From: a virus | Virus genome (UHGV): UHGV-0334114 | DNA length: 11,126 nucleotides | Direction: 5' to 3' (one strand) | Shown here: in pieces, positions 341 to 10,898 of the stretch | Layout of the letters: the number at the start of each line of letters is the position of its first letter | Numbering within the stretch: position 1 is the first letter of the stretch | The notes under the pieces: model-generated | Seen by the model: only the letters and a program-made list of their open reading frames with translations | Told to the model about the DNA's origin: nothing | The model's database searches: none | Translations under genes and position numbers: made by a program

Positions 341-589
341 ATGGCAAGACTTATTCTGCTCACTGAGTGGGCAAAAGAGGAATTCAGTGAACCGGTCCCT
401 ACTCCGAGTACGTTAAGTAAATACGCTAAAGCCGGAATGATATTTCCTCTCCCCAAAAAAGTTGGAAGACGCTGGCGAGTGGATCCGCAAGCTCGCTTTG
501 TCGGAATGGTAAACAAGCCGGAGGTGATCGCCACAGATCACCCTGCTTTGAAGAGGATACTGGAAGATGGCGCGCCCGCGAAAATATAA
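341..589 (+). CDS. xis: excisionase / recombination directionality factor (Xis-like)
   Basis: 82-aa ORF immediately upstream of int, overlapping it by 23 bp (567-589) as xis/int do in lambda. The basic motif IFPLPKKVGRRWRV resembles lambda Xis (IFPPPVKDGREY, from memory). No obvious Shine-Dalgarno, so the start is uncertain. Confidence 0.6.
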   Translation: MARLILLTEWAKEEFSEPVPTPSTLSKYAKAGMIFPLPKKVGRRWRVDPQARFVGMVNKPEVIATDHPALKRILEDGAPAKI

Positions 590-1697
590 AACCGATGTTC
601 CGGGATTATCTCCGTATTTTGACAAAAGAAATAACAAAGTTTACTGGCGTTACAGGCATCCCATAACAGGCAAAAATCACGGTCTCGGCAGTATTGACCA
701 GAAACTGGCAGAAACTATTGCAGCAGAAGCGAACAGCCGTCTTGCCCGGCAGCAAATGGAACAAATGCTCAGTCTGCAGGAGAAAATTATTAGTGATACC
801 GGCGGTTCATCAACCGTTACCATTTTTCTGAATAATTACAGAAAAATTCAACAGGAAAGATATGAAAACGGCGAGATCAAACTCAACACGCTGAAACAGA
901 AAGCGGCCCCTCTCAGGGTATTTGATGAACGTTTTGGCACCAGACCGTTAGATGCCATAACCGTAAAAGATGTGGTATCAGTACTGGAAGAGTACAAGGC
1001 CAGAGGACATAACAGAATGGGACAAATTTTCAGGAAAGTACTGATCGATGTTTTCCGGGAAGCTCAGCAAACGGGCGATGTCCCGCCAGGCTTTAACCCT
1101 GCAGAATCGGCAAAAAAACCGCAGGTGCGGATATCAAGACAGCGACTGACTTTTGATGAGTGGATGATGATTTATAACGCAGCGGAAAAGGATGGTTACT
1201 TTTTACAGCGCGGTATGCTGCTGGCACTGATGACAGGCCAGCGCCTTTCAGATATTTGCAAAATGCAATTTTCGGATATCCGGGATGGTTATCTTCATGT
1301 CGAACAGCAAAAAACAGGAACCCGGATTGCCATCCCTCTGGCTCTGCGTTGCGATAAATTAAATCTCACCCTGGATGATGTGGTGTCATCCTGCCGCGAT
1401 TGCGTTCTTAGTCCGTGGCTATTGCACCACCATCACGCGAAAGGGACAGCTAAGCGCGGCGGGATGGTTAAGCCAGCAACATTAACCGTTGCATTTAAAA
1501 AAGCCCGGGATTCTGTGGATTACAACTGGCGTGCTAATGGCACCCCACCCTCTTTCCATGAGCAGAGATCTTTATCAGAGCGATTGTTCAGAGAGCAGGG
1601 GGTTGATACCAAAATTTTGCTAGGCCATTCGAATCAAAAAATGACCGATATTTACAACGACGCACGCGGTAAGGAATGGAAAAAACTGGTCATTTGA
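567..1697 (+). CDS. int: tyrosine site-specific integrase, lambda Int family
   Basis: 376 aa. The C-terminal catalytic domain aligns by eye to lambda Int: TGQRLSD (Arg), EQQKTG (Lys), FHEQRSLSERL (His/Arg), LLGHSNQKMTDIY (His and Tyr nucleophile). AGAGGA Shine-Dalgarno 9 nt upstream of the ATG at 567. N-terminal arm-binding region is diverged from lambda Int. Confidence 0.95.
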   Translation: MARPRKYKTDVPGLSPYFDKRNNKVYWRYRHPITGKNHGLGSIDQKLAETIAAEANSRLARQQMEQMLSLQEKIISDTGGSSTVTIFLNNYRKIQQERYENGEIKLNTLKQKAAPLRVFDERFGTRPLDAITVKDVVSVLEEYKARGHNRMGQIFRKVLIDVFREAQQTGDVPPGFNPAESAKKPQVRISRQRLTFDEWMMIYNAAEKDGYFLQRGMLLALMTGQRLSDICKMQFSDIRDGYLHVEQQKTGTRIAIPLALRCDKLNLTLDDVVSSCRDCVLSPWLLHHHHAKGTAKRGGMVKPATLTVAFKKARDSVDYNWRANGTPPSFHEQRSLSERLFREQGVDTKILLGHSNQKMTDIYNDARGKEWKKLVI

Positions 1698-1708
1698 TGA
1701 CCAGTTTT
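1680..1708. terminator. bidirectional intrinsic terminator candidate (12-bp perfect inverted repeat overlapping the int stop codon)
   Basis: AAAACTGGTCAT (1682-1693) and ATGACCAGTTTT (1697-1708) are perfect inverted repeats around a 3-nt loop. The stem is flanked by A6 (1680-1685) and T4 (1705-1708), giving a U4 tail on the + transcript (int) and a U6 tail on the - transcript (ompW-like segment). Confidence 0.5.
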
Positions 1709-1738
1709 GCAGAGGGGTTTTGCAGAGGTTTTGCAGAG
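1705..1738 (+). repeat. three direct repeats of TTTTGCAGAG; candidate integrase arm-type binding sites (P' arm)
   Basis: TTTTGCAGAG occurs at 1705-1714, 1718-1727 and 1729-1738, immediately 3' of int. A fourth near-copy AGTTTTGCAGAAGG lies at 1979-1992 on the other side of the proposed core. Placement mirrors lambda P'1-P'3 versus P-arm sites. Confidence 0.45.
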
Positions 1739-1742
1739 AAAA

Positions 1743-1868
1743 TTAAAAACGATATCCTGCGGAGAACATAAACACCCACGGATCCAGTCGTACCGAGTCT
1801 TTTACGGTAGTAACACCAGATTTGTACTTAGCCGTGGTATCGATATCCATGTACCAGACCGGTAGGTT
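1743..1868 (-). pseudogene. ompW: phage-borne 3'-terminal segment of ompW (41 codons plus stop); probable attP core and replacement 3' end of the integration target gene
   Basis: The - strand frame reads NLPVWYMDIDTTAKYKSGVTTVKDSVRLDPWVFMFSAGYRF then stop, preceded by an in-frame TGA at 1869-1871. It matches the OmpW C-terminus as I recall it (...VWYMDIDTTANYKLGGAQQHDSVRLDPWVFMFSAGYRF). No OmpW-like coding continues upstream in any frame, so this is a fragment, not a gene. Confidence 0.6.
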
Positions 1869-2170
1869 TCAAAAAACACAATAACCAATTGTATTTGAAG
1901 CAAAAAACAAGACTTTGAGATGTTTTTTTGTACCTTTTTTTATGTTTTTAACTGTCTGATTTTATTGAAATCTTTTTTAGTTTTGCAGAAGGAATTTTTT
2001 ACTTGATTGTAACTTTTTCGTTTTTTTGGGGCTAATTGACGCGCAATGCTGGGCGGGGAGCGCACAGCCAAAAAAACCGAAATTGACCGCTAATTACTGC
2101 CAATCATCATCGCTCTGATTGAGCGTAAATCATTCAGGTTTTTCAGTTCTTCCTTCTGCTCTCGCTGACG

Positions 2171-2341
2171 TCAATAAATCCCATCATTGCGATCAACCTC
2201 ATCCTTAACCATTGATGCGAGCAGTTCTTCCAGTTTCTGCGCTGACAGCTTTACCTGGTGATCTTCAGCATCTTCCCGGGCTATTGTGGTTCGCGCAGTG
2301 GCTGATTTTGCTGACATCACCACAGGGGGCAGACGGACCAT
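2171..2341 (-). CDS. hypothetical small protein (56 aa), sole ORF of the b-region equivalent
   Basis: ATG at 2341-2339 is preceded by GGAGG about 10 nt upstream. Product is MVRLPPVVMSAKSATARTTIAREDAEDHQVKLSAQKLEELLASMVKDEVDRNDGIY, predicted helical and acidic at the C-terminus. The listed 93-aa version starts at a TTG 4 bp after the tfa stop and has an odd hydrophobic N-terminus. No family recognised. Confidence 0.3.
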   Translation of the reverse strand: MVRLPPVVMSAKSATARTTIAREDAEDHQVKLSAQKLEELLASMVKDEVDRNDGIY

Positions 2342-2455
2342 TGAACCATGGCCTCCGGAACAAATAAGGGCAAAAATAACAACCACTATCGAAAGCTCAC
2401 AAACTAACCGCAGCACGTTCCTGCATACGACGTGTCTGCGGCATAATCCCAATGA

Positions 2456-3040
2456 TTACTCCCTGACAGGGTTCGTAGGCCACTCAATATCAGGTGCAGT
2501 TGATGTATCAACACGGTTCAGCAACACCCGATACTTTTTCCAGGCTTCCAGCAATGAGGTTTCTTCCTCCGTTGCAATTTCCAGATCTGCAGCATCCTGA
2601 AGCGGCGCAATATGCTCACTGGCTACCTGCATCAGGTTGTTTTTTGTTTCTTCCGCCTCCCGGATCCGGAACAGTTTTTCTGCTTCCGTATCCTTCACCC
2701 AGGCTGTGCCGTTCCACTTCTGAAACTCCCCTTCCGGCGATAACCAGGTAACATTTTCCGGTAACGGACCGAGTTCAGAAATAAATAACTCGTCCCCTGA
2801 CGCTACGTCATAAACCGTTTTCCCCCGATGGTCTTCAACGAGATGCCACGATGCCTCATCACTGTTGAAAACAGCCACAAAGCCAGCAGGAATATCTGGT
2901 GGTGCAATATCGGTACTGTTTGCTGGCAGACCTGTATGAGGCGGAATATATGCGTCACCTTCACCAATAAATTCATTAGTTCCGGCCAGCAGATTATAAA
3001 TTTTTATGGTCCGTGCTTGTTCACTCATTCTGAATGCCAT
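2456..3040 (-). CDS. tfa: tail fibre assembly protein (lambda Tfa-like)
   Basis: 194 aa, the same length as lambda Tfa and near-identical to it as I recall ([50 protein letters not shown]...). Its ATG overlaps the stf stop (TAATG). Confidence 0.9.
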
Positions 3041-6000
3041 TATGCAAGCCTCACAATATAGTTAAATGCGATGTTTTTGACGGTGTTTTCCGCGTTACCC
3101 GCAGCGTTAACGGTGATGGTGTGTCCATGTGAACCAATCGCAACGGAGTGCGTATGCGCACCAATACCTACAGTATGTGCATGTGCGCCAGAACTTGCTG
3201 CAGTACCAGACAGCGAGTGGGTATGAGCACCTGCTGACTGTGTCTGAATACGTTGATAATACGATCTATAGGAAGAAGTCTCCGGGCTTACTTGATACTG
3301 TGAATTCTGGACATAAGTGAACCCACCGCCATCATAAAATGCTAACGCAGAACCGCCGCCTCCTGGCCAACGAATACCATTACCATGAGTATGAACACCG
3401 GCAGACCCCGTAGAGCCACTCAGACTGTGCGTATGCGCCCCGGTGTTATTCGTGGATTTAGTGCCGTAATCAAACGACGATGTGGTTTTCGTCCCCAAAT
3501 CCGTACTGGATGCGCTGGCGCTGTGGGTGTGCGATTTTATGCCGTCCTGTTCCTGAGACAATACGGCCCGGCCACTGGCGGGTTTGCCCTTAATCGTCCA
3601 GCCACGCATATCAGGGATCACGCCTGACGGATAAGCCGCTGCAAGTTTCGGGTAGGCAGATTTGTTAAAAGTCTGCCCCTGCATCAGGGCATAACCAGAC
3701 GGAACGGTATCTGATGGCCACGGGATTGGTGCGCCAACTGGGTAGCTTTCTGGTGGAAGATTTTTCGAGGTATAAACTTCTGCCCAGTCTTCCTCAAAAC
3801 CATAACCGTCTCTTGAAGAACGGTAGAACAGACCACGATTTCTGTAATGCGCCTTCATCTGCAGGGTCCGGCAACTTCCGACTCCGGTATAGAAGTTAAC
3901 CAGAATATAGCTGTCGCCAGAGCGGGCGACATTGTAAGCGCCTGATTCGGCATTCCAGGGAACGGCTCCATTCGAATCCGCATAAGCCCCCGTCGAACGT
4001 CGGGCAAATGCACCAATATTTTCCGGCGTGAGGTTAATATCCGCCGAGCCATCAAACTTAACACCGTTAATTTTTGGGGCTGCCGCAAGTTTCGTCGCGG
4101 TATCGGCGTTCCCCTTCAGTGCCCCGGTGATCCCATCAGTAACAGACAACGGACCTGAAATAGTCCCTCCAGTCGTTGGCAGCGCTCCAATATCTGATGG
4201 TGTAGGTTTCTGATGTGAGCTATACATCGTATAAACAACACCACCGGTAACGCTGGAAGGCTTACTCGCTGAATATGTTGGCGAGGTATAAATAGAAACT
4301 GACGCATTTGCAGTACAATCCCAATGGATATTTACACTCGTCGCATAATTGCCAATCTCAACGTAAATATCATATGTATCGCCGGATGTGTTGATCCAGG
4401 CGAAATTCGTTAATCCGACGGCTGTACGCTTCCACAAAGCCCCGGTAATTCCTTTGGGGTTTCCATTGCCTGCTCGTAGAACCAGTTCTGAAATGCCTGC
4501 CTGATGTGGGGAACCGACGTTGTAACCAGCGCCACCAATCAATGCGATGTAAACGATGGAACTCGCTTGTGGCATGGTAACCGTTGCCAGTTTGAACCAC
4601 CCAGCCCCGCCAGAGAAAGAGATCGTTACTGAATTTAAAGTGCCAATATCTTTCGGTGTTAATGTTATATCCGCAGTCAGTGCTTTCCCGTTAACTTTTC
4701 GGTTAGATGGTACCCTGCCATTCGCATTGTCATTCGCTGCTTTAACTGCCTTCGGTGTCGCGGCAAGCGTTTCAGATGTGATGTTGGTCGCACTGCTGAG
4801 CTGTACTATCCCCTTTTTCGTCGTACTTGCATCCTCAAGCGCCACGGCGGATGCAATATCCTCTGCCCGTTTTGCCGCTGTCTCGGCGCGCGTTGCCGCG
4901 GATTCCGCCGTACTTTTGCTCTGTGCTGCCGCCGTCGCACTGCCAGCTGCCTCTGTCGCCTTCGCGGATGCTGTCGTGGCGCTGCCCTTCGCTGCTGACG
5001 CCTGTCTGGTCGCCTCATCTTTTGAAGCAGACGCCGATGATGCCGATGACGCCGCCGAACTGGCGGACGATGCGGCAGCCGTTTTTGAGGATTCTGCGCT
5101 GGTCTCCGACGCTTTCGCGTTCGTCTCCGATGTCTTCGCTGCGGAAGCAGACCTCGCTGCTGCACTGGCCTGTTCAGTGGCTTCGCCAGCCTTCGTTGTG
5201 GCTGTTGAAGCGGACGATGCGGCGCTTTCTGCCGATTTTCCGGCGGCGCTAGCACTGGCTGAGGCCTGCCCGGCACTTGTTGACGCTGCACTGGCAGACG
5301 ACGCAGCCGCTGTTTTTGAGCCTGCTGCTGCGGAGGCACTCTGTGCTGCTGCCGTTTCAGAGGACTTAGCGTTTGTCTCAGACGTCTTTGCCGCCTTCGC
5401 GGAATTTCCTGCCGCCGTTGCCGAGGAAGCGGCATTACTGGCGCTCGAGGCTGCGCTCGTTTCTGATAATTTTGCCGCCTCTTTTGAAGCCGACGCATCT
5501 CTGGCTGAGGTGGCTGCTTCTGACGCTTTCGTGGTCGCGGTGGATGCAGAAGTGGCAGCTGATTGTTGTGACGCTGCCGCATTCGTTTCTGACGTTTTCG
5601 CCGCACCGGCACTGGTGGCCGCCGCGCTTTTTGAGGACTCTGCAGCGGCAGCACTTTTTGATGCTTCAGTGGCCTTTGCTGATGCCGTTCCTGCGCTGGA
5701 AGACGCAGACTGAGCCGACGAAGCGGCCTGTCCGGCTGACGTGCTGGCTGCTCGTGCTGAGCCTGCAGCATCAGTCGCACGGGTTGCCGCCTCACGGGCT
5801 GATGTGCTGGCATCGCTGGCTGATTTCTTCGCGGCTGCCGTGTTCTGTGCCACCGCGGACGCGTTACGCGCCACCTCTTCCACCATCAGTTCAAAGCGGC
5901 GCAGTGCCTCAGGACGGGCATCATCCTCCGTCATGGCACCGAGAAAATCATTCAGCGTACCGGGTCGGGAATCTTCATACACGGTGATGGTCCCGGCATG

Positions 6001-6210
6001 TGACGGCGGGAATCCTTCCACCAACAGAATAACGCTGTACTGACCGTACTCAACGTCCATGCTGTAACGCCCGGCTTCATCCGGATTTTCTGAGGCCAGC
6101 GTGTTCACCACCACCGTGGTGCTGTTACGTTTTGCTTTCAGCTGGATTGTGCAGTTCTGTACCGGTTTTCCTGTGCCGTCTTTCAGTACACCTGAAATCT
6201 TTACTGCCAT
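3040..6210 (-). CDS. stf: side tail fibre protein (Stf; lambda Stf / Rac StfR-like, mosaic)
   Basis: Preferred start is the ATG at 6210 ([26 protein letters not shown]..., as in lambda Stf), with GGGGTGA just upstream; the listed ORF starts at a GTG at 6216. Has a long Ala/Ser/Thr-rich repeat tract, repeated GAHTHSLSG/HxH motifs, and a conserved C-terminus [22 protein letters not shown]. Confidence 0.9.
4820..5860 (-). repeat. in-frame low-complexity Ala/Ser/Thr-rich repeat tract inside stf
   Basis: Reiterated peptide units (AKTSETNA three times, STATTKA.EAT twice, SAASSAS...), with matching nucleotide-level reiteration. This composition generates the long spurious ORFs in other frames (4556-5713 +, 4806-5813 -, 5373-5987 +). 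Confidence 0.7.
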
Positions 6211-6220
6211 ATTCACCCCA

Positions 6221-6274: not shown

Positions 6275-6874
6275 TCAGAATTTATAACCGACACCAACGA
6301 TGAAACTGTTGGTACGCCAGTCACCGCTGCCGGAGCCTTCATAAGCGACATCAACGGCCACGGATTCTGTCGGGTTAAACTGCACGCCAGCCCCCCACGC
6401 CAGAGACGTGTTGCTGTGGCGATCGTCATCACTTCCGGTCAGCACATCGTGCGTTTTCCCCGTATTGTCGGTCACCTGCAGATAATCCCCGGAGAAAGTC
6501 GACACACGGCTGTAAGCCACACCCGCCATCGCATACGCGCTGAACCATTCATTCACGCGCACAGACGGCCCCGCCATCACGCTGAACCAGCGGTTACGCA
6601 CGGAATCTTCATGCCAGCGGGTATCGCTGTAATGCGTTTTTTGCTCATCTTCAGCGTTGGCATAACTGAATGACGTAATCAGCCCCAGCGTGTCCGTAAA
6701 CTCATAACGGTATTTCACGTTAATCCCGTTCAGATTATCGCTGCCGGGAGCGTTCGTACGGGCATGAAGATACCCTGCGCTCAGTGTGGCCTGCTGCTCA
6801 GACGCCCATGCAGGCGCACCGGATACGGCCAGACAGATGGCTGCGGACAAAATGGCTGCACAAACTTTACGCAT
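6275..6874 (-). CDS. lom: outer-membrane protein Lom (Ail/Lom/PagC family beta-barrel), moron
   Basis: 199 aa with an N-terminal signal peptide ([24 protein letters not shown]). The C-terminus [26 protein letters not shown] matches lambda Lom. GAGG Shine-Dalgarno upstream. Sits between J and stf as in lambda. Confidence 0.9.
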
Positions 6875-6941: not shown

Positions 6942-9900
6942 TCAGCTAATCGTGATGCCTGTAGTGGCTTTCTTCATCACCACAACCAGCAAATCGCTGA
7001 TACTTGCTGTGGGATACCAGTTATTTACCAGCCATGCTGACACCGAAAACTCCAGTGTCATGTGACCGTGACCGGCAGGCATATCAATAACGCCACTGTA
7101 AATCAGCGTATTATCCAGCGCGGTACGGTTATAAATTTCAGCACCGTTTTTCCGCACTATCAGACGGCATGAGGAGTAAATATCAGTATGCTCTTTCTCA
7201 TGTTTAGCGCCGCTGAATGCCACCGCCGGAATAACAATCTGCCGGTCAAACGGCTGATCGTCATAAACCCTGACGGTAATGGTTCCTGATGGCCACCGCT
7301 CCGGTGCACGGGAGTCCCGGGGGAAAGCTTTGCCCACTGTTTTAACGAGATCGCCTTCAATCTGGTTCGCGGACAATTTTCCCAGAACCCGACAGTTCTC
7401 GTTAATCGTGACGTTGTTGAGCGTCCCGGAGTTCGCATTCACGTTACCGCTGATATCGGCATTTTTCGCCGTCAGCCGCCCGTCCGGTGTCAGGGAAAAT
7501 GCCGGAGGATTACCGCCGCTGGTAATGGTGGGGGCCGTCAGGCGTTTCAGGAACACTTCATTCATGAATATCTGATCGCCCTGACCAACAAACATCGGCT
7601 TTGTGTTGCCATTCGCAGGATTAATCATCGCAATCCTGTCTGCTGCCAGCAGCACCTGACTCTGCATGCCGTCAGGGGTGTTCTCAATACCGGCACCGAT
7701 ACCCGCAATATAAAGGCGTCCGTCCTGCATCTGCTGCAGCTTCACTGCCCACATGCTGTTCAGGTTATTATTTGTATCAACCTGAACCTTCTGTATCTGC
7801 TGGATCGCTGCACTCTGGTCTTCCAGTTTCTTATTGACGGTCTGTGTTATTTCATTGCTGACATCCGTTATGGACGTCCTGATTTCAGTCAGGTCAGGCG
7901 CAAGCTGACCGTTATCAATCTGCGTCCACAGCTCCTGAGCCAGATGGGTTTTCCCTATCTCGCCTTTGAAAAAATCCAGATAGCCTGATGCATCATCACT
8001 CGGCTGACCGACAGCCTCCACGAATGCCGATTTGCCAACGGTGTTCACACTGCGAACGTAAAAATAATAATCATGGCCCGGTTTGATATTGATACTGGCG
8101 GCTATCCAGTACAGTGCCGTACCAAGATAACGCGCGCTGGTTTCAACCTGCCTGATATCCGCAATCCGTTTTTCCGAGAACCAGAACTCAAACTGTACCG
8201 TCGGATCATAAACCGCAAGATGCGGCGTGGCGGTTATCTGAAAATAGCCCGGCGTCAGCTCAATCCGCGACGGTGCTGCCGGTGCGGCAATCCGGAATGA
8301 TACCGACGCCGGATCACCCTGCTGCCCCCAGGCATTTACCGCCCTGACTGTCAGCCTGTAGTTCCCCAGCGCCAGCTGCCTGAAGCGGTATGTGGTTTCC
8401 GTCGTCCGGGCCGTGCTGACCAGCCGCTCACTGCCGTCATCCGCTGTTACGGTCAGACGGAGCAGGAAGCTCACGCCCTTCACCACCTTCGGCGTGTCCC
8501 AGCAGGCCAGCACCTGATATTCCCCGCTGTCTGCGGTGACTTCGGCAGTCAGGTGCTGCACCGCTGGCGGCGTGACACCATTCACCGTGCCGCTCTGGTC
8601 GCCGTCAAAGTGCGCCCCGTTATCCACGATGGCTTCTTTTTCCGGTACATGCTGCACGGCGGTGATGGCATACGTGCCGTCGTCGTTCTCACGGATACTC
8701 ACGCAGCGGAACAGGCGCTGGCGCAGCGTCGGCAGCTTCAGCCCCCACACGCTGTATCCGGCAACGCCGTCAGGAACACGGCTCACTTTTACCTTCACGC
8801 CGTCGGTGACGGACTGGACCTCCACGCTGACCGGATTGCCACTTCCGTCAACCAGGCTTATCAGCGTGGTACCGGAGGATGGCAGCGTGATTTCACGGTC
8901 GAGCGTCAGCGTCCGGGTCTGGCTGTTCACCGCCAGCACGCGCCCGCCGATGCTGATACCCGCATAGTCATCATCGCAGATTTCAATGACATCCCCCGGT
9001 ACATGGCGAAGCCCTTCCGCACCCACGCTGAAGTCCACGGTCTGCGTTTCCAGCAGTTCCGTTTTAATCAGCCACAGCCCGGCGCGGTGTGCCTGCCCCC
9101 GGCTGGTACAGCCAAAGGCATCCATCTTCGTGACGTTACGACCGTAACGGAGAATGGCCTGCGTATCTTCAACAAGCTCTGTCGCCGTCTCCCAGCCGTT
9201 ATCCGGGTCAATCCAGTTCACCTCAACGGCATTATGGCGGTCCTTCAGGGCGCTGAAGCTGTAGCGGAACGGCGCGCCATCATCCGGCATCACCACATTA
9301 CTGCGGTTATAGGTCCACACCTTATCCGACGGTCGGTCCTGCACGAACGTCAGCGTCTGCCCGTTCCATACCGGCATACAGCGCATCGCCGAGCAGAAAT
9401 CACTGAGAACATCCCACGCCTTACGCTGTGTGGTCAGCCAGGCATTACAGGTGATGCGCGGCTCCGTGCCACCAAAGCCATCCGGCACCGACTGGTCGCA
9501 ATTCTGGCCGATGACATACAGCGCCCATTTGTCCACATCCGCCGCACCGAGACGCTTCCCCATGCCGTAGCGCGGATGGGTCAGCATATCCCACAGACAC
9601 CAGGCCATGTTGTTGCTGTATGCCGGTTTAAACGTCCCGTCCCAGATACCGTTGTATTGCCGCGTCTGCGGGTTATAGTTCGACGGCACCTGCAGAATGC
9701 GCCCGCGAAGATGATAATTACGGCTCACCTGCTGGCTGCCGAACTGCTCCGAATCCACCTGCACGCCGACCAGTGCCGTGTTCGGGTAGCCCTGTTTCAC
9801 ATCGATGATTTCGGTGTATGACGACCAGAGCGTTTTGTTCTGCAGCTGGTCTGTGGTGCTGTCCGGCGTCATCCTGCGCATCCGTATATTGAACGGGCGC

Positions 9901-10421
9901 GGCGGCAGGTTACCCACCACCACCGAGGCCAGATACTGCGAGGTGGTTTTGCCCTTAATGGTGATGTCTTTTTCCGTCACCCAGCCACCATTACGTTGTA
10001 TCTGAACCAGCAGGCGAACTTCCGACGGATTCCTGTCCCCCTTTGAGGTGGTTTCCACCAGTGCCTGCACACCGAAGGTAAAACGCAGTCGGTCAATGTT
10101 TGCCGACGTGATGGTCCGGGTGATCGGCGTGTCGTATTTCACTTCCGTACCCAGTACCGTCTCGGAACCTGATGATTCAAATCCCTCCGGCGGTGTCTGT
10201 TCCTGCTCACCTGCCCGGAACACCACCGTGACACCAGAGATGTTAGTATTCCCCTCACTGTCCAGCACCGGTGTACTGTTCAGCAGCACGCTTTTTAATC
10301 CATCCACCGGACCTTCAACCGGCCCTTCGCTGATGGCATCGATCACACTCAGCAGCTGCGTGGACTTCAGGTTGTCCCTCGCTTCGCGCGGGGTATGCCC
10401 CTTACTGCTTCCTTTACCCAT
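6942..10421 (-). CDS. J: tail tip attachment / host specificity protein J
   Basis: 1159 aa. The N-terminus [34 protein letters not shown] and most of the protein match lambda J as I recall it. GAGGA Shine-Dalgarno directly upstream of the ATG. A central segment and the C-terminal ~150 aa (receptor-binding region) are clearly diverged from lambda J. Confidence 0.95.
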
Positions 10422-10487: not shown

Positions 10488-10826
10488 TTATTTACATGCA
10501 TTAACACTATCAGCAAAAATTTTTGGCGTTAATGCTGGTACACGTTCATAAAGAGTAAAACTACTGCCATTTCCTGCTTTTTTGATATCAAGCACAACAT
10601 CATATCCCCCCATAGCCTGTGGAACTAAAAGGCTTACCCCATTCTCAATAGGAAGGGATGTTATAGGTGTTCCATTACCAGCCCATTGTCTGGATATGCA
10701 GCCTGACAATTCATCAATATTTTTTAATGAATTACCTTCCATTACAGGTTTTCCGGATTTTACGTAATCCAAAGACTTACATCCTGTTAAGGCAATAATC
10801 GTGCAGAATAAAATCGTTTTGTTCAT
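10488..10826 (-). CDS. small secreted lipoprotein of unknown function (moron inserted between tail genes I and J)
   Basis: Preferred start is the ATG at 10826, giving MNKTILFCTIIALTGC..., a classic lipoprotein signal peptide with lipobox LTGC; the listed ORF starts 4 codons earlier at a TTG. Mature part is about 95 aa with two further Cys. The gene and its flanks are markedly AT-rich compared with I and J. No good Shine-Dalgarno seen. Confidence 0.7.
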   Translation of the reverse strand: MNKTILFCTIIALTGCKSLDYVKSGKPVMEGNSLKNIDELSGCISRQWAGNGTPITSLPIENGVSLLVPQAMGGYDVVLDIKKAGNGSSFTLYERVPALTPKIFADSVNACK

Positions 10827-10898
10827 ATAGCTAACCAATAGAATAATTATCAGTGTTCGATATAAATATTAAATCAGTTAGAACATGAGTAAATAATA

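What the first reader, a model, noticed from the sequence alone, without database searches (positions are those of the whole stretch)
1698..2455. Near-absent b region: a single unrecognised 56-aa ORF between attP and tfa
In lambda the stretch between tfa and attP is several kb of non-essential cargo, and such slots in temperate phages are frequent sites for accessory or defence cargo. Here it is reduced to about 760 bp with one small ORF (2171-2341, -) with a plausible GGAGG ribosome-binding site, encoding an acidic, probably helical peptide. Either cargo has been lost, or this small protein is the accessory function.
Basis: inference. Interest (0 to 1): 0.4.

Follow-up and report, generated by a model that had tools for sequence, protein, structure and literature searches.

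The report
Dead tail-fibre chaperone remnant beside attP
The 56-codon ORF is a broken leftover of an old tail-fibre chaperone gene sitting next to the phage attachment site, and this copy recently lost a methyltransferase cassette, so the finding is ordinary.

Summary
The ORF (2171-2341, minus, 56 aa, GGAGG 10 nt upstream) exists, but it is not unrecognised. It matches residues about 110-165 of roughly 190-aa DUF4376 proteins. These are encoded directly after the tail-fibre gene and are the last gene before att in phiP27, Rac-SA53 and SerU-LTIIb. The N-terminal 100 or so codons are missing. The ORF ends at a TGA where intact homologues have R, Q or H. Homology continues 26 more codons to the ancestral TAG at 2090-2092. 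RefSeq already annotates this stretch as a pseudogene.

It has three tandem GTTTTGCAGAG repeats (1704-1739). Next comes a phage-borne ompW 3' end (1741-1861), whose identity block with the chromosome is at 1834-1856. A fourth repeat lies at 1980-1991.

The closest relative (99.4% identical) carries a 1,049-bp ybcY-type methyltransferase cassette between tfa and a tfa 3' fragment. The window is a recombinant between those two repeats, with the crossover at 2437-2474. "Cargo lost" is therefore supported and "accessory protein" is not. The few polymorphisms give no sign of purifying selection. One 99%-identical relative has lost the ORF's start. No promoter or defence-family match was found.

The parts
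341..589 (+). xis (excisionase), overlapping int by 23 nt
   Evidence: Pfam Exc PF07825, E 1.3e-7. Annotated as excisionase in SCU-125.
567..1697 (+). Lambda-type tyrosine integrase of the PPompW family
   Evidence: Pfam Arm-DNA-bind_1 (E 7e-22) and Phage_integrase (E 1.3e-16). The 3' end of int and the adjacent att DNA (window 1600-1859) are 99.6% identical to PPompW records.
1704..1739 (+). Three tandem GTTTTGCAGAG(G/A) repeats directly after the int stop. Candidate Int arm-type sites (P' arm).
   Evidence: Matches with 0-1 mismatch occur only here and at 1981 in the whole window. Binding is inferred, not tested.
1741..1861 (.). 121-bp att segment of PPompW phages: a phage-borne, diverged copy of the ompW 3' end
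   Evidence: Maps onto the 'duplication due to insertion' feature of LC567822. It differs at 27 of 121 nt from the chromosomal copy. att was defined experimentally in PMC8112680.
1743..1868 (-). ompW 3' fragment (41 codons plus stop), annotated as an OmpW-family pseudogene in relatives
   Evidence: Translation ends ...DPWVFMFSAGYRF*. PGAP annotation.
1834..1856 (.). 23-bp block identical in attP, attL and attR. The strand-exchange region lies here or in the next 5 nt.
   Evidence: int-side copies are phage-type up to this block. Far-side copies are chromosome-type up to it.
1862..2089 (.). AT-rich P arm and spacer (GC 0.36-0.39), with a fourth arm-type-like repeat at 1980-1991
   Evidence: This stretch is contiguous with the chromosomal ompW 3' end in single lysogens such as EFF60.
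2090..2359 (-). Relic of a DUF4376 tail-fibre chaperone gene. It covers the C-terminal 88 or so codons, lacks the N-terminus and has an internal TGA.
   Evidence: PGAP pseudogene at these coordinates. tblastn gives 54-62% identity over all 88 codons, across the stop, to phiP27 L57, Rac-SA53 tail4, SerU-LTIIb stf2 and an Actinobacillus phage. Alignment. phrog_1141 positions 106-191 of 194, E 1.5e-20.
2171..2341 (-). The 56-aa ORF of the finding: the part of the relic from an internal Met to the premature TGA (2171-2173)
   Evidence: At the stop position the aligned intact or longer homologues have R, Q or H.
2352..2356 (-). GGAGG, 10 nt upstream of the ATG. It lies in frame and encodes the Gly-Gly of 'SGGHGS', at the point where homology to DUF4376 proteins begins.
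2360..2455 (-). Spacer between the relic and tfa. 2406-2455 is the conserved sequence that follows tfa genes. Lambda itself matches from 2399 onward, into tfa. 2360-2405 is junction DNA of unknown origin.
   Evidence: (H27). A weak hairpin lies at 2425-2409.
2437..2474 (.). 38-bp identical stretch that contains the crossover which deleted the methyltransferase cassette
   Evidence: Three-way alignment of the window, the SCU-125 tfa' flank and the SCU-125 full tfa.
2456..3040 (-). tfa, a lambda-type tail-fibre assembly protein (intact, 194 aa)
   Evidence: Pfam Caudo_TAP, E 1.9e-44. phrog_105, E 8.8e-101.

Best explanation
The interval 1698-2455 has no working cargo gene. It consists of four parts.
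- A lambda-type attP of an ompW-integrating phage, about 1700-2000. It has three arm-type repeats next to int, a phage-borne ompW 3' end with the 23-bp exchange block at 1834-1856, and a fourth repeat in an AT-rich arm.
- About 90 bp of spacer.
- A 270-nt dead remnant of a DUF4376-type tail-fibre chaperone gene (2090-2359).
- The 96-nt trailer of tfa.

The 56-aa ORF is what remains open inside the remnant.

The likely history is this. An ancestor ended with a tail-fibre gene followed by a DUF4376 chaperone as the last gene before att, as phiP27 and Rac-SA53 still do. A tail-fibre module swap joined a lambda-type stf-tfa module into the middle of the old chaperone gene. Its 3' 88 codons were left stranded and later acquired a nonsense codon. 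A second swap left a tfa 3' fragment plus a ybcY-type methyltransferase, which is the common state today. In the window's lineage, homologous recombination between tfa and that fragment deleted the methyltransferase cassette.

Shown: the homology, the truncation, the stop, the recombinant junction and the att segments. Inferred: the order of events, Int binding to the repeats, and the non-function of the peptide.
For: Homology of the ORF.
- The translation read through the stop matches about 190-aa proteins at 54-62% identity over all 88 codons.
- The phiP27, Rac-SA53 and SerU-LTIIb genes start at or overlap the stop of a tail-fibre gene and are the last or next-to-last gene before att.
- Those three carry Pfam DUF4376 at residues about 70-177.
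- Homology starts at residue about 104 of the homologues. The stop falls on a position that is R, Q or H in them.
- PGAP calls the same pseudogene in all inspected relatives.
- DUF4376 proteins are experimentally supported tail-fibre chaperones in Alteromonas phage V22 (PMC7289586, PMC10579305).

Signs of decay.
- TGA is present in all 75 relic-bearing loci that reach the stop position (72 IMG/VR contigs and 3 E. coli chromosomes).
- Polymorphisms inside the ORF are 6 nonsynonymous to 2 synonymous. That ratio is what neutrality would give, though the count is small.
- Database variants include in-frame deletions, chimeric 3' ends and a TGG read-through.
- L077 lacks the start.
- No sigma-70-like promoter lies on that strand. 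There is no PADLOC or Pfam family match. GC is ordinary at 0.48-0.50.

Cargo loss.

attP.
Against: - The ORF keeps an ATG with a usable GGAGG.
- It lies on the same strand as the late tail genes with only a weak hairpin in between, so it is probably transcribed during lytic growth and could be translated.
- The relic is retained at 95% identity or more in about 950 of 5,426 complete E. coli genomes. The TGA allele is nearly fixed. That fits recent common descent but does not exclude some use.
- Eight polymorphisms are too few for a real selection test.
- No expression data were available.
Confidence: 0.9

Rival explanations
1. The 56-aa peptide is a working small protein. For example, it could be a fragment of the helical body of the chaperone that is made late in infection and acts on tail-fibre assembly of this or a competing phage.
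For: - ATG with GGAGG at 10 nt.
- Same strand as the late operon, with no strong terminator after tfa.
- Retained in about 950 genomes.
- DUF4376 chaperones are predicted to trimerise through an alpha-helical body (PMC10579305).
Against: - It lacks the N-terminal 103 or so residues and the last 26 residues of the parent protein.
- Polymorphisms are 6 nonsynonymous to 2 synonymous.
- Variants exist with deletions and swapped ends.
- L077 has lost the start and 37 codons.
- The resident fibre uses a lambda-type Tfa, not a DUF4376 chaperone.
- No own promoter was found.
Confidence: 0.05
2. The phage never had cargo here. The short form is ancestral, and the methyltransferase form of relatives arose by insertion.
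For: A few single lysogens, such as EFF60, share the short form.
Against: - The window's tfa 3' end is identical to the full tfa of SCU-125 and not to the diverged tfa' fragment. The DNA just beyond the tfa stop is identical to the tfa' flank. An ancestral short form would carry the tfa' allele.
- The cassette form is found in nearly all of 70 IMG/VR relatives.
- The relic-tfa' arrangement covers at least 80% of the junction query in about 1,100 genomes. Only 4 records match the window's junction at 99% or more.
Confidence: 0.05
3. The relic DNA is kept because it works in cis, as an extended part of the attP P arm or as a terminator or processing site for the late transcript.
For: - A weak fifth repeat-like match lies at 2136-2146.
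- The relic always sits at the att-proximal end of ompW prophages.
Against: - In ST131-type prophages a 0.9-kb Ash/Rha cassette separates the relic from the att arm. A fixed distance to the core is therefore not needed.
- No terminator-like site or Rfam family was found in 2090-2359 on the minus strand.
Confidence: 0.05

Closest known systems
DUF4376 (PF14301) tail-fibre chaperones: phiP27 L57, Rac-SA53 'tail4', SerU-LTIIb 'stf2'; experimentally, Alteromonas phage V22 gp27
   Same: The relic is 54-62% identical to the C-terminal 88 residues of these proteins in phiP27, Rac-SA53, SerU-LTIIb and an Actinobacillus phage. It is 69-73% identical to partial E. coli DUF4376 proteins. Like them it is the last coding sequence before att.
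   Different: - Only the C-terminal half is left.
- It has a premature TGA.
- It is not coupled to a fibre gene.
- It does not reach any Pfam threshold on its own.
PPompW prophages and their 121-bp att (Nakamura et al. 2021, PLoS Pathog, PMC8112680)
   Same: The integrase 3' end, the arm repeats and the 121-bp ompW-derived att segment are the same (99.6% over window 1600-1859).
   Different: - The O145:H28 PPompW prophages hold about 7 kb with four T3SS effector genes (espO, nleG, espM, nleG) between J and att, and no relic was found in the PPompW records. The window holds only the relic.
- The window shows the attP-type arrangement, not attL or attR.
tfaD - ybcY - tfaX region of the DLP12 prophage of E. 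coli K-12 (gene names from my own knowledge; architecture)
   Same: The unit lost from the window has the same architecture: tfa, a 45-aa ORF, a class I SAM methyltransferase on the opposite strand, then a tfa 3' fragment. A stranded 3' end of a tail-fibre chaperone gene is the same kind of fossil as the relic.
   Different: In DLP12 the fragment is followed by appY and ompT, not by a DUF4376 relic and att. The window has lost the unit altogether.
Lambda b region (ea47, ea31, ea59 and others, between tfa and attP)
   Same: Same map position: a non-essential slot between the last tail gene and attP. It is variable among relatives.
   Different: Lambda has several kb of intact genes on the opposite strand. 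Here no intact gene is left.

Membership tests
DUF4376 tail-fibre chaperone (functional member) | Significant match to Pfam PF14301 | tested here: not met
   The 56-aa, 88-aa and 93-aa translations give no DUF4376 hit even at E up to 10. Full-length homologues score 58-66 bits. The relationship is nevertheless shown by tblastn and by phrog_1141 and phrog_7703.
DUF4376 tail-fibre chaperone (functional member) | Complete protein of about 187-192 aa with the N-terminal part | tested here: not met
   Homology begins at residue about 104 of the homologues. The upstream 34 or so codons of the open frame are unrelated sequence.
DUF4376 tail-fibre chaperone (functional member) | Uninterrupted reading frame to the family's C-terminus | tested here: not met
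   TGA lies at 2171-2173, and 26 further homologous codons run to TAG 2090-2092. TGA is present in all 75 loci that reach that position.
DUF4376 tail-fibre chaperone (functional member) | Placed directly after, and coupled to, its cognate tail-fibre gene | tested here: not met
   It follows a lambda-type tfa after a 96-nt gap. In phiP27, Rac-SA53 and SerU-LTIIb the gene overlaps or abuts the fibre gene.
Accessory (moron or defence) gene of a prophage cargo slot | Intact gene with its own promoter or terminator, or atypical composition | tested here: not met
   No promoter-like site on the minus strand in 1600-2700. GC is 0.48-0.50, like its surroundings.
Accessory (moron or defence) gene of a prophage cargo slot | Match to a known defence or accessory family | tested here: not met
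   No PADLOC hit. No Pfam family above threshold.
Accessory (moron or defence) gene of a prophage cargo slot | Kept intact under purifying selection in relatives | tested here: inconclusive
   6 nonsynonymous to 2 synonymous polymorphisms in 72 IMG/VR and 3 E. coli loci, plus deletion and chimeric variants. This points to neutrality, but the numbers are small.
Lambda-type attP (PPompW) | Adjacent integrase with an arm-binding N-terminal domain | tested here: met
   PF09003, E 7e-22, at residues 2-71.
Lambda-type attP (PPompW) | Repeated arm-type sites on both sides of the core | tested here: met
   Three tandem copies at 1704-1739 and one at 1980-1991. The pattern is met. Binding by Int is not testable here.
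Lambda-type attP (PPompW) | Core identical to the bacterial site, consistent with attL and attR of lysogens | tested here: met
   The 23-bp block at 1834-1856 is shared by attP-type, attL and attR sequences. The 121-bp att was confirmed by sequencing of excised circles in PMC8112680.

The most novel reading that the evidence does not exclude
The stranded C-terminal fragment of the DUF4376 chaperone is translated from the late transcript. It would then act as a decoy that interferes with fibre maturation of co-resident or superinfecting phages that depend on a DUF4376 chaperone. That would be a form of inter-phage competition built from a gene fossil.
Probability: 0.03. Interest if true: 0.5.

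Novelty: already known. Interest (0 to 1): 0.1.

Why it matters
It matters little by itself. RefSeq already annotates the relic as a pseudogene, and the att site has been described. The useful points are practical.
- Small ORFs next to att sites in lambdoid prophages can be stacked fossils of earlier tail-fibre module swaps and should be checked by reading through stops.
- The slot is a cargo site in this phage family. Relatives hold a methyltransferase, Rha/Ash regulators, IS elements with a kinase, or T3SS effectors there.
- The direct repeats of tfa 3' ends allow clean loss of cargo.

Tried and rejected
- Pfam on the ORF: only sub-threshold noise (US6, Reticulon, DUF5646).
- Rfam on 1500-2700: nothing in the interval. 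The only hit is IS009, inside tfa.
- Promoter and terminator scan: no more sites than expected from shuffles. Only a weak 5-bp hairpin follows tfa.
- IHF consensus scan: one-mismatch sites at 1905-1920 and 1949-1961, but the count is not above chance.
- PDB sequence search with a full-length DUF4376 homologue: no meaningful hit.
- AlphaFold2 of the 145-aa homologue P0013 with a 6-row alignment: mean pLDDT 47. This is too poor to use, so no fold search was run.
- I first thought the relic travels with the tail module to other att sites, because some matches stop at window 2093 or 2108. Inspection showed these are also ompW prophages with an Ash/Rha cassette inserted between the relic and the att arm. 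That idea was dropped.
- PADLOC on the lost methyltransferase: only a marginal mad2 match (E 0.004), not taken as evidence of defence.

Full report
LAYOUT
The window is the att-proximal end of a lambdoid E. coli phage. On the plus strand lie the end of an exonuclease gene (1-276), xis (341-589) and int (567-1697). On the minus strand lie tfa (2456-3040), a 1,058-aa side tail fibre gene (3040-6216), lom (6275-6874) and J (6942-10421). The finding concerns the 758 bp between the int stop and the tfa stop.

THE OBSERVATION
The ORF is there. ATG is at 2341-2339 and TGA at 2173-2171, giving 56 codons. GGAGG lies at 2356-2352, 10 nt upstream. The open frame extends further up to a TTG at 2452, giving 93 aa. 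The peptide is only mildly acidic, with pI 5.2. An open frame of this size is not unusual: the window has 68 ORFs of 40 aa or more.

WHAT THE ORF IS
Read through its stop, the frame continues for 26 more codons to a TAG at 2090-2092.
- This 88-codon translation matches phage proteins over its whole length, across the stop. Identity is 62% to SerU-LTIIb 'stf2', 58% to Rac-SA53 'tail4', 55% to phiP27 L57 and 54% to an Actinobacillus phage protein.
- The first three were inspected. They are 187-192-aa proteins encoded directly after a tail-fibre gene. Each is the last or next-to-last gene before the att site.
- They carry Pfam DUF4376 at residues about 70-177.
- In the alignment, homology starts at residue about 104 of the homologues. 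The ATG of the ORF falls on an internal M or L. The TGA falls on a position that is R, Q or H in the intact or longer homologues. A single change, such as CGA to TGA, would explain the stop.
- The 56 aa alone hit phrog_1141 ('tail fiber protein') at positions 111-165 of 194 (E 2.6e-9) and phrog_7703 (E 4.6e-14).
- PGAP annotates exactly this stretch (window 2090-2359) as a 'DUF4376 domain-containing protein' pseudogene. It appears in every RefSeq relative inspected.
- DUF4376 proteins are tail-fibre chaperones. gp27 of Alteromonas phage V22 is needed to produce an active fibre (PMC7289586). These chaperones are modelled as helical trimeric caps that resemble intramolecular chaperone domains (PMC10579305).

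SIGNS OF DECAY
- The relic occurs in 954 of 5,426 complete E. coli genomes at mostly 95% identity or more.
- In 72 IMG/VR contigs and 3 E. coli chromosomes that reach the stop position, the TGA is always present.
- Inside the 56 codons there are six nonsynonymous polymorphisms (V45M, A52V, A54S, A63T, Q67L, D85N in relic-frame numbering) and two synonymous ones. The count is small and shows no sign of purifying selection.
- The protein database holds a rare TGG read-through form, forms with a phiP27-like 3' end, and two in-frame deletion forms.
- Locus L077 is 99% identical in the shared relic and att-proximal DNA. It has a 388-bp deletion that removes the GGAGG, the ATG and 37 codons.
- No promoter-like site lies on that strand. 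GC is ordinary. There is no PADLOC or Rfam match.

THE REST OF THE INTERVAL IS attP
- Window 1600-1859 is 99.6% identical to the int end of the 'PPompW' prophages.
- Their annotated 121-bp 'duplication due to insertion' maps to window 1741-1861. The att was confirmed experimentally by Nakamura et al. (PMC8112680).
- The segment is a phage-borne copy of the ompW 3' end, ending ...DPWVFMFSAGYRF*. It differs from the chromosomal copy at 27 of 121 nt.
- int-side copies are phage-type and far-side copies are chromosome-type, right up to a 23-bp identical block at 1834-1856. Strand exchange must therefore occur there or in the next few bases.
- Three tandem GTTTTGCAGAG repeats follow the int stop (1704-1739). 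A fourth lies at 1980-1991 in the AT-rich arm. This is the arrangement expected for the arm-type sites of an integrase with an Arm-binding domain. Binding is inferred.
- attP therefore takes up about 1700-2000.

THE CONTIGUITY DOES NOT PROVE A FREE PHAGE GENOME
In the closest relative, SCU-125, the same sequence is the joint between two tandem lambdoid prophages at ompW. Both prophages encode identical Int and Xis proteins.

CARGO LOSS
- SCU-125 matches all 11,126 bases at 99.4%, in two pieces.
- The gap between the pieces is a 1,049-bp insert. It holds a 45-aa ORF and a class I SAM methyltransferase on the opposite strand. The insert lies between the full tfa and a 59-codon tfa 3' fragment that directly precedes the relic.
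- In a three-way alignment the window is identical to the fragment's flank up to about 2436 and identical to the full tfa from about 2475. A shared 38-bp stretch lies in between.
- The window is thus a deletion product of recombination between the two direct repeats.
- The cassette form is seen in nearly all of 70 IMG/VR relatives.
- The cassette itself is in 3,798 of 5,426 genomes. The same architecture is present in DLP12 of K-12.
- Only 4 records match the window's tfa-relic junction at 99% or more.

WHAT OTHER RELATIVES HOLD IN THIS SLOT
- Ash and Rha regulators between the relic and the att arm in ST131 and others.
- IS elements and a protein kinase in O157:H7.
- About 7 kb holding four T3SS effector genes in O145:H28 PPompW.
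- In L012, a different fibre gene with an endosialidase-type intramolecular chaperone lies upstream of the same methyltransferase, tfa' and relic stack.

This stacking supports a history of repeated tail-fibre module replacement, each event stranding the 3' end of the previous chaperone gene.

VERDICT
Of the two interpretations, 'cargo lost' is supported and 'accessory protein' is not. The feature is an already annotated pseudogene next to a described att site. Interest is low.

Noticed in passing
window 2499-2697 (-): Rfam family IS009 (RF02111) matches at 225 bits (gathering score 117), entirely inside the 3' part of the intact tfa coding sequence. In this window, the sequence this 'RNA family' matches is ordinary tfa coding DNA.
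   Followed up: no
window 10488-10838 (-): A 116-aa ORF with a lipoprotein-like N-terminus (...LTGCKS) lies between the tail assembly gene and J. Local GC is 0.36-0.38 against 0.55 around it. It hits phrog_914 (unknown function) and has no Pfam or PADLOC match. It looks like a moron and is a better candidate for an accessory function than the finding.
   Followed up: partly
window 1743-1868 (-); L079 39191-39829: Integration replaces the last 30 or so residues of OmpW with the phage-encoded version. Seven residues differ (ANYKLGGAQQHDS becomes AKYKSGVTTVKDS). Lysogens therefore make a hybrid OmpW.
   Followed up: partly
window 1857-1860: The attP-type junctions (window, L001, L003, L009) read G at 1857, just after the 23-bp core block. 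Both the attL and attR copies examined read C. The window and L009 also have C at 1860 where the others have T. This was not explained.
   Followed up: partly
window 4550-5850: The tail-fibre gene has a long Ala/Ser/Thr-rich low-complexity stretch (GC about 0.62, strong AT skew). It produces long spurious ORFs on both strands (4556-5713 plus, 4806-5813 minus).
   Followed up: no
window 2456-2458 and 2171-2455 (-): The tfa stop codon (TAA) is in the same frame as the 93-aa open frame that contains the relic. Read-through of that stop would extend Tfa into it. This is probably coincidence.
   Followed up: no
L080 about 12800-22550 (SCU-125 chromosome 997,800-1,007,550): In the neighbouring tandem prophage the large terminase gene is split into two fragments. 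Between them sits an element of about 10 kb with its own integrase, a RepA-family helicase, an Icd-like protein, SSB, DUF1441 and a prohead protease/capsid fusion gene. This looks like a satellite or island inserted in the terminase gene.
   Followed up: no
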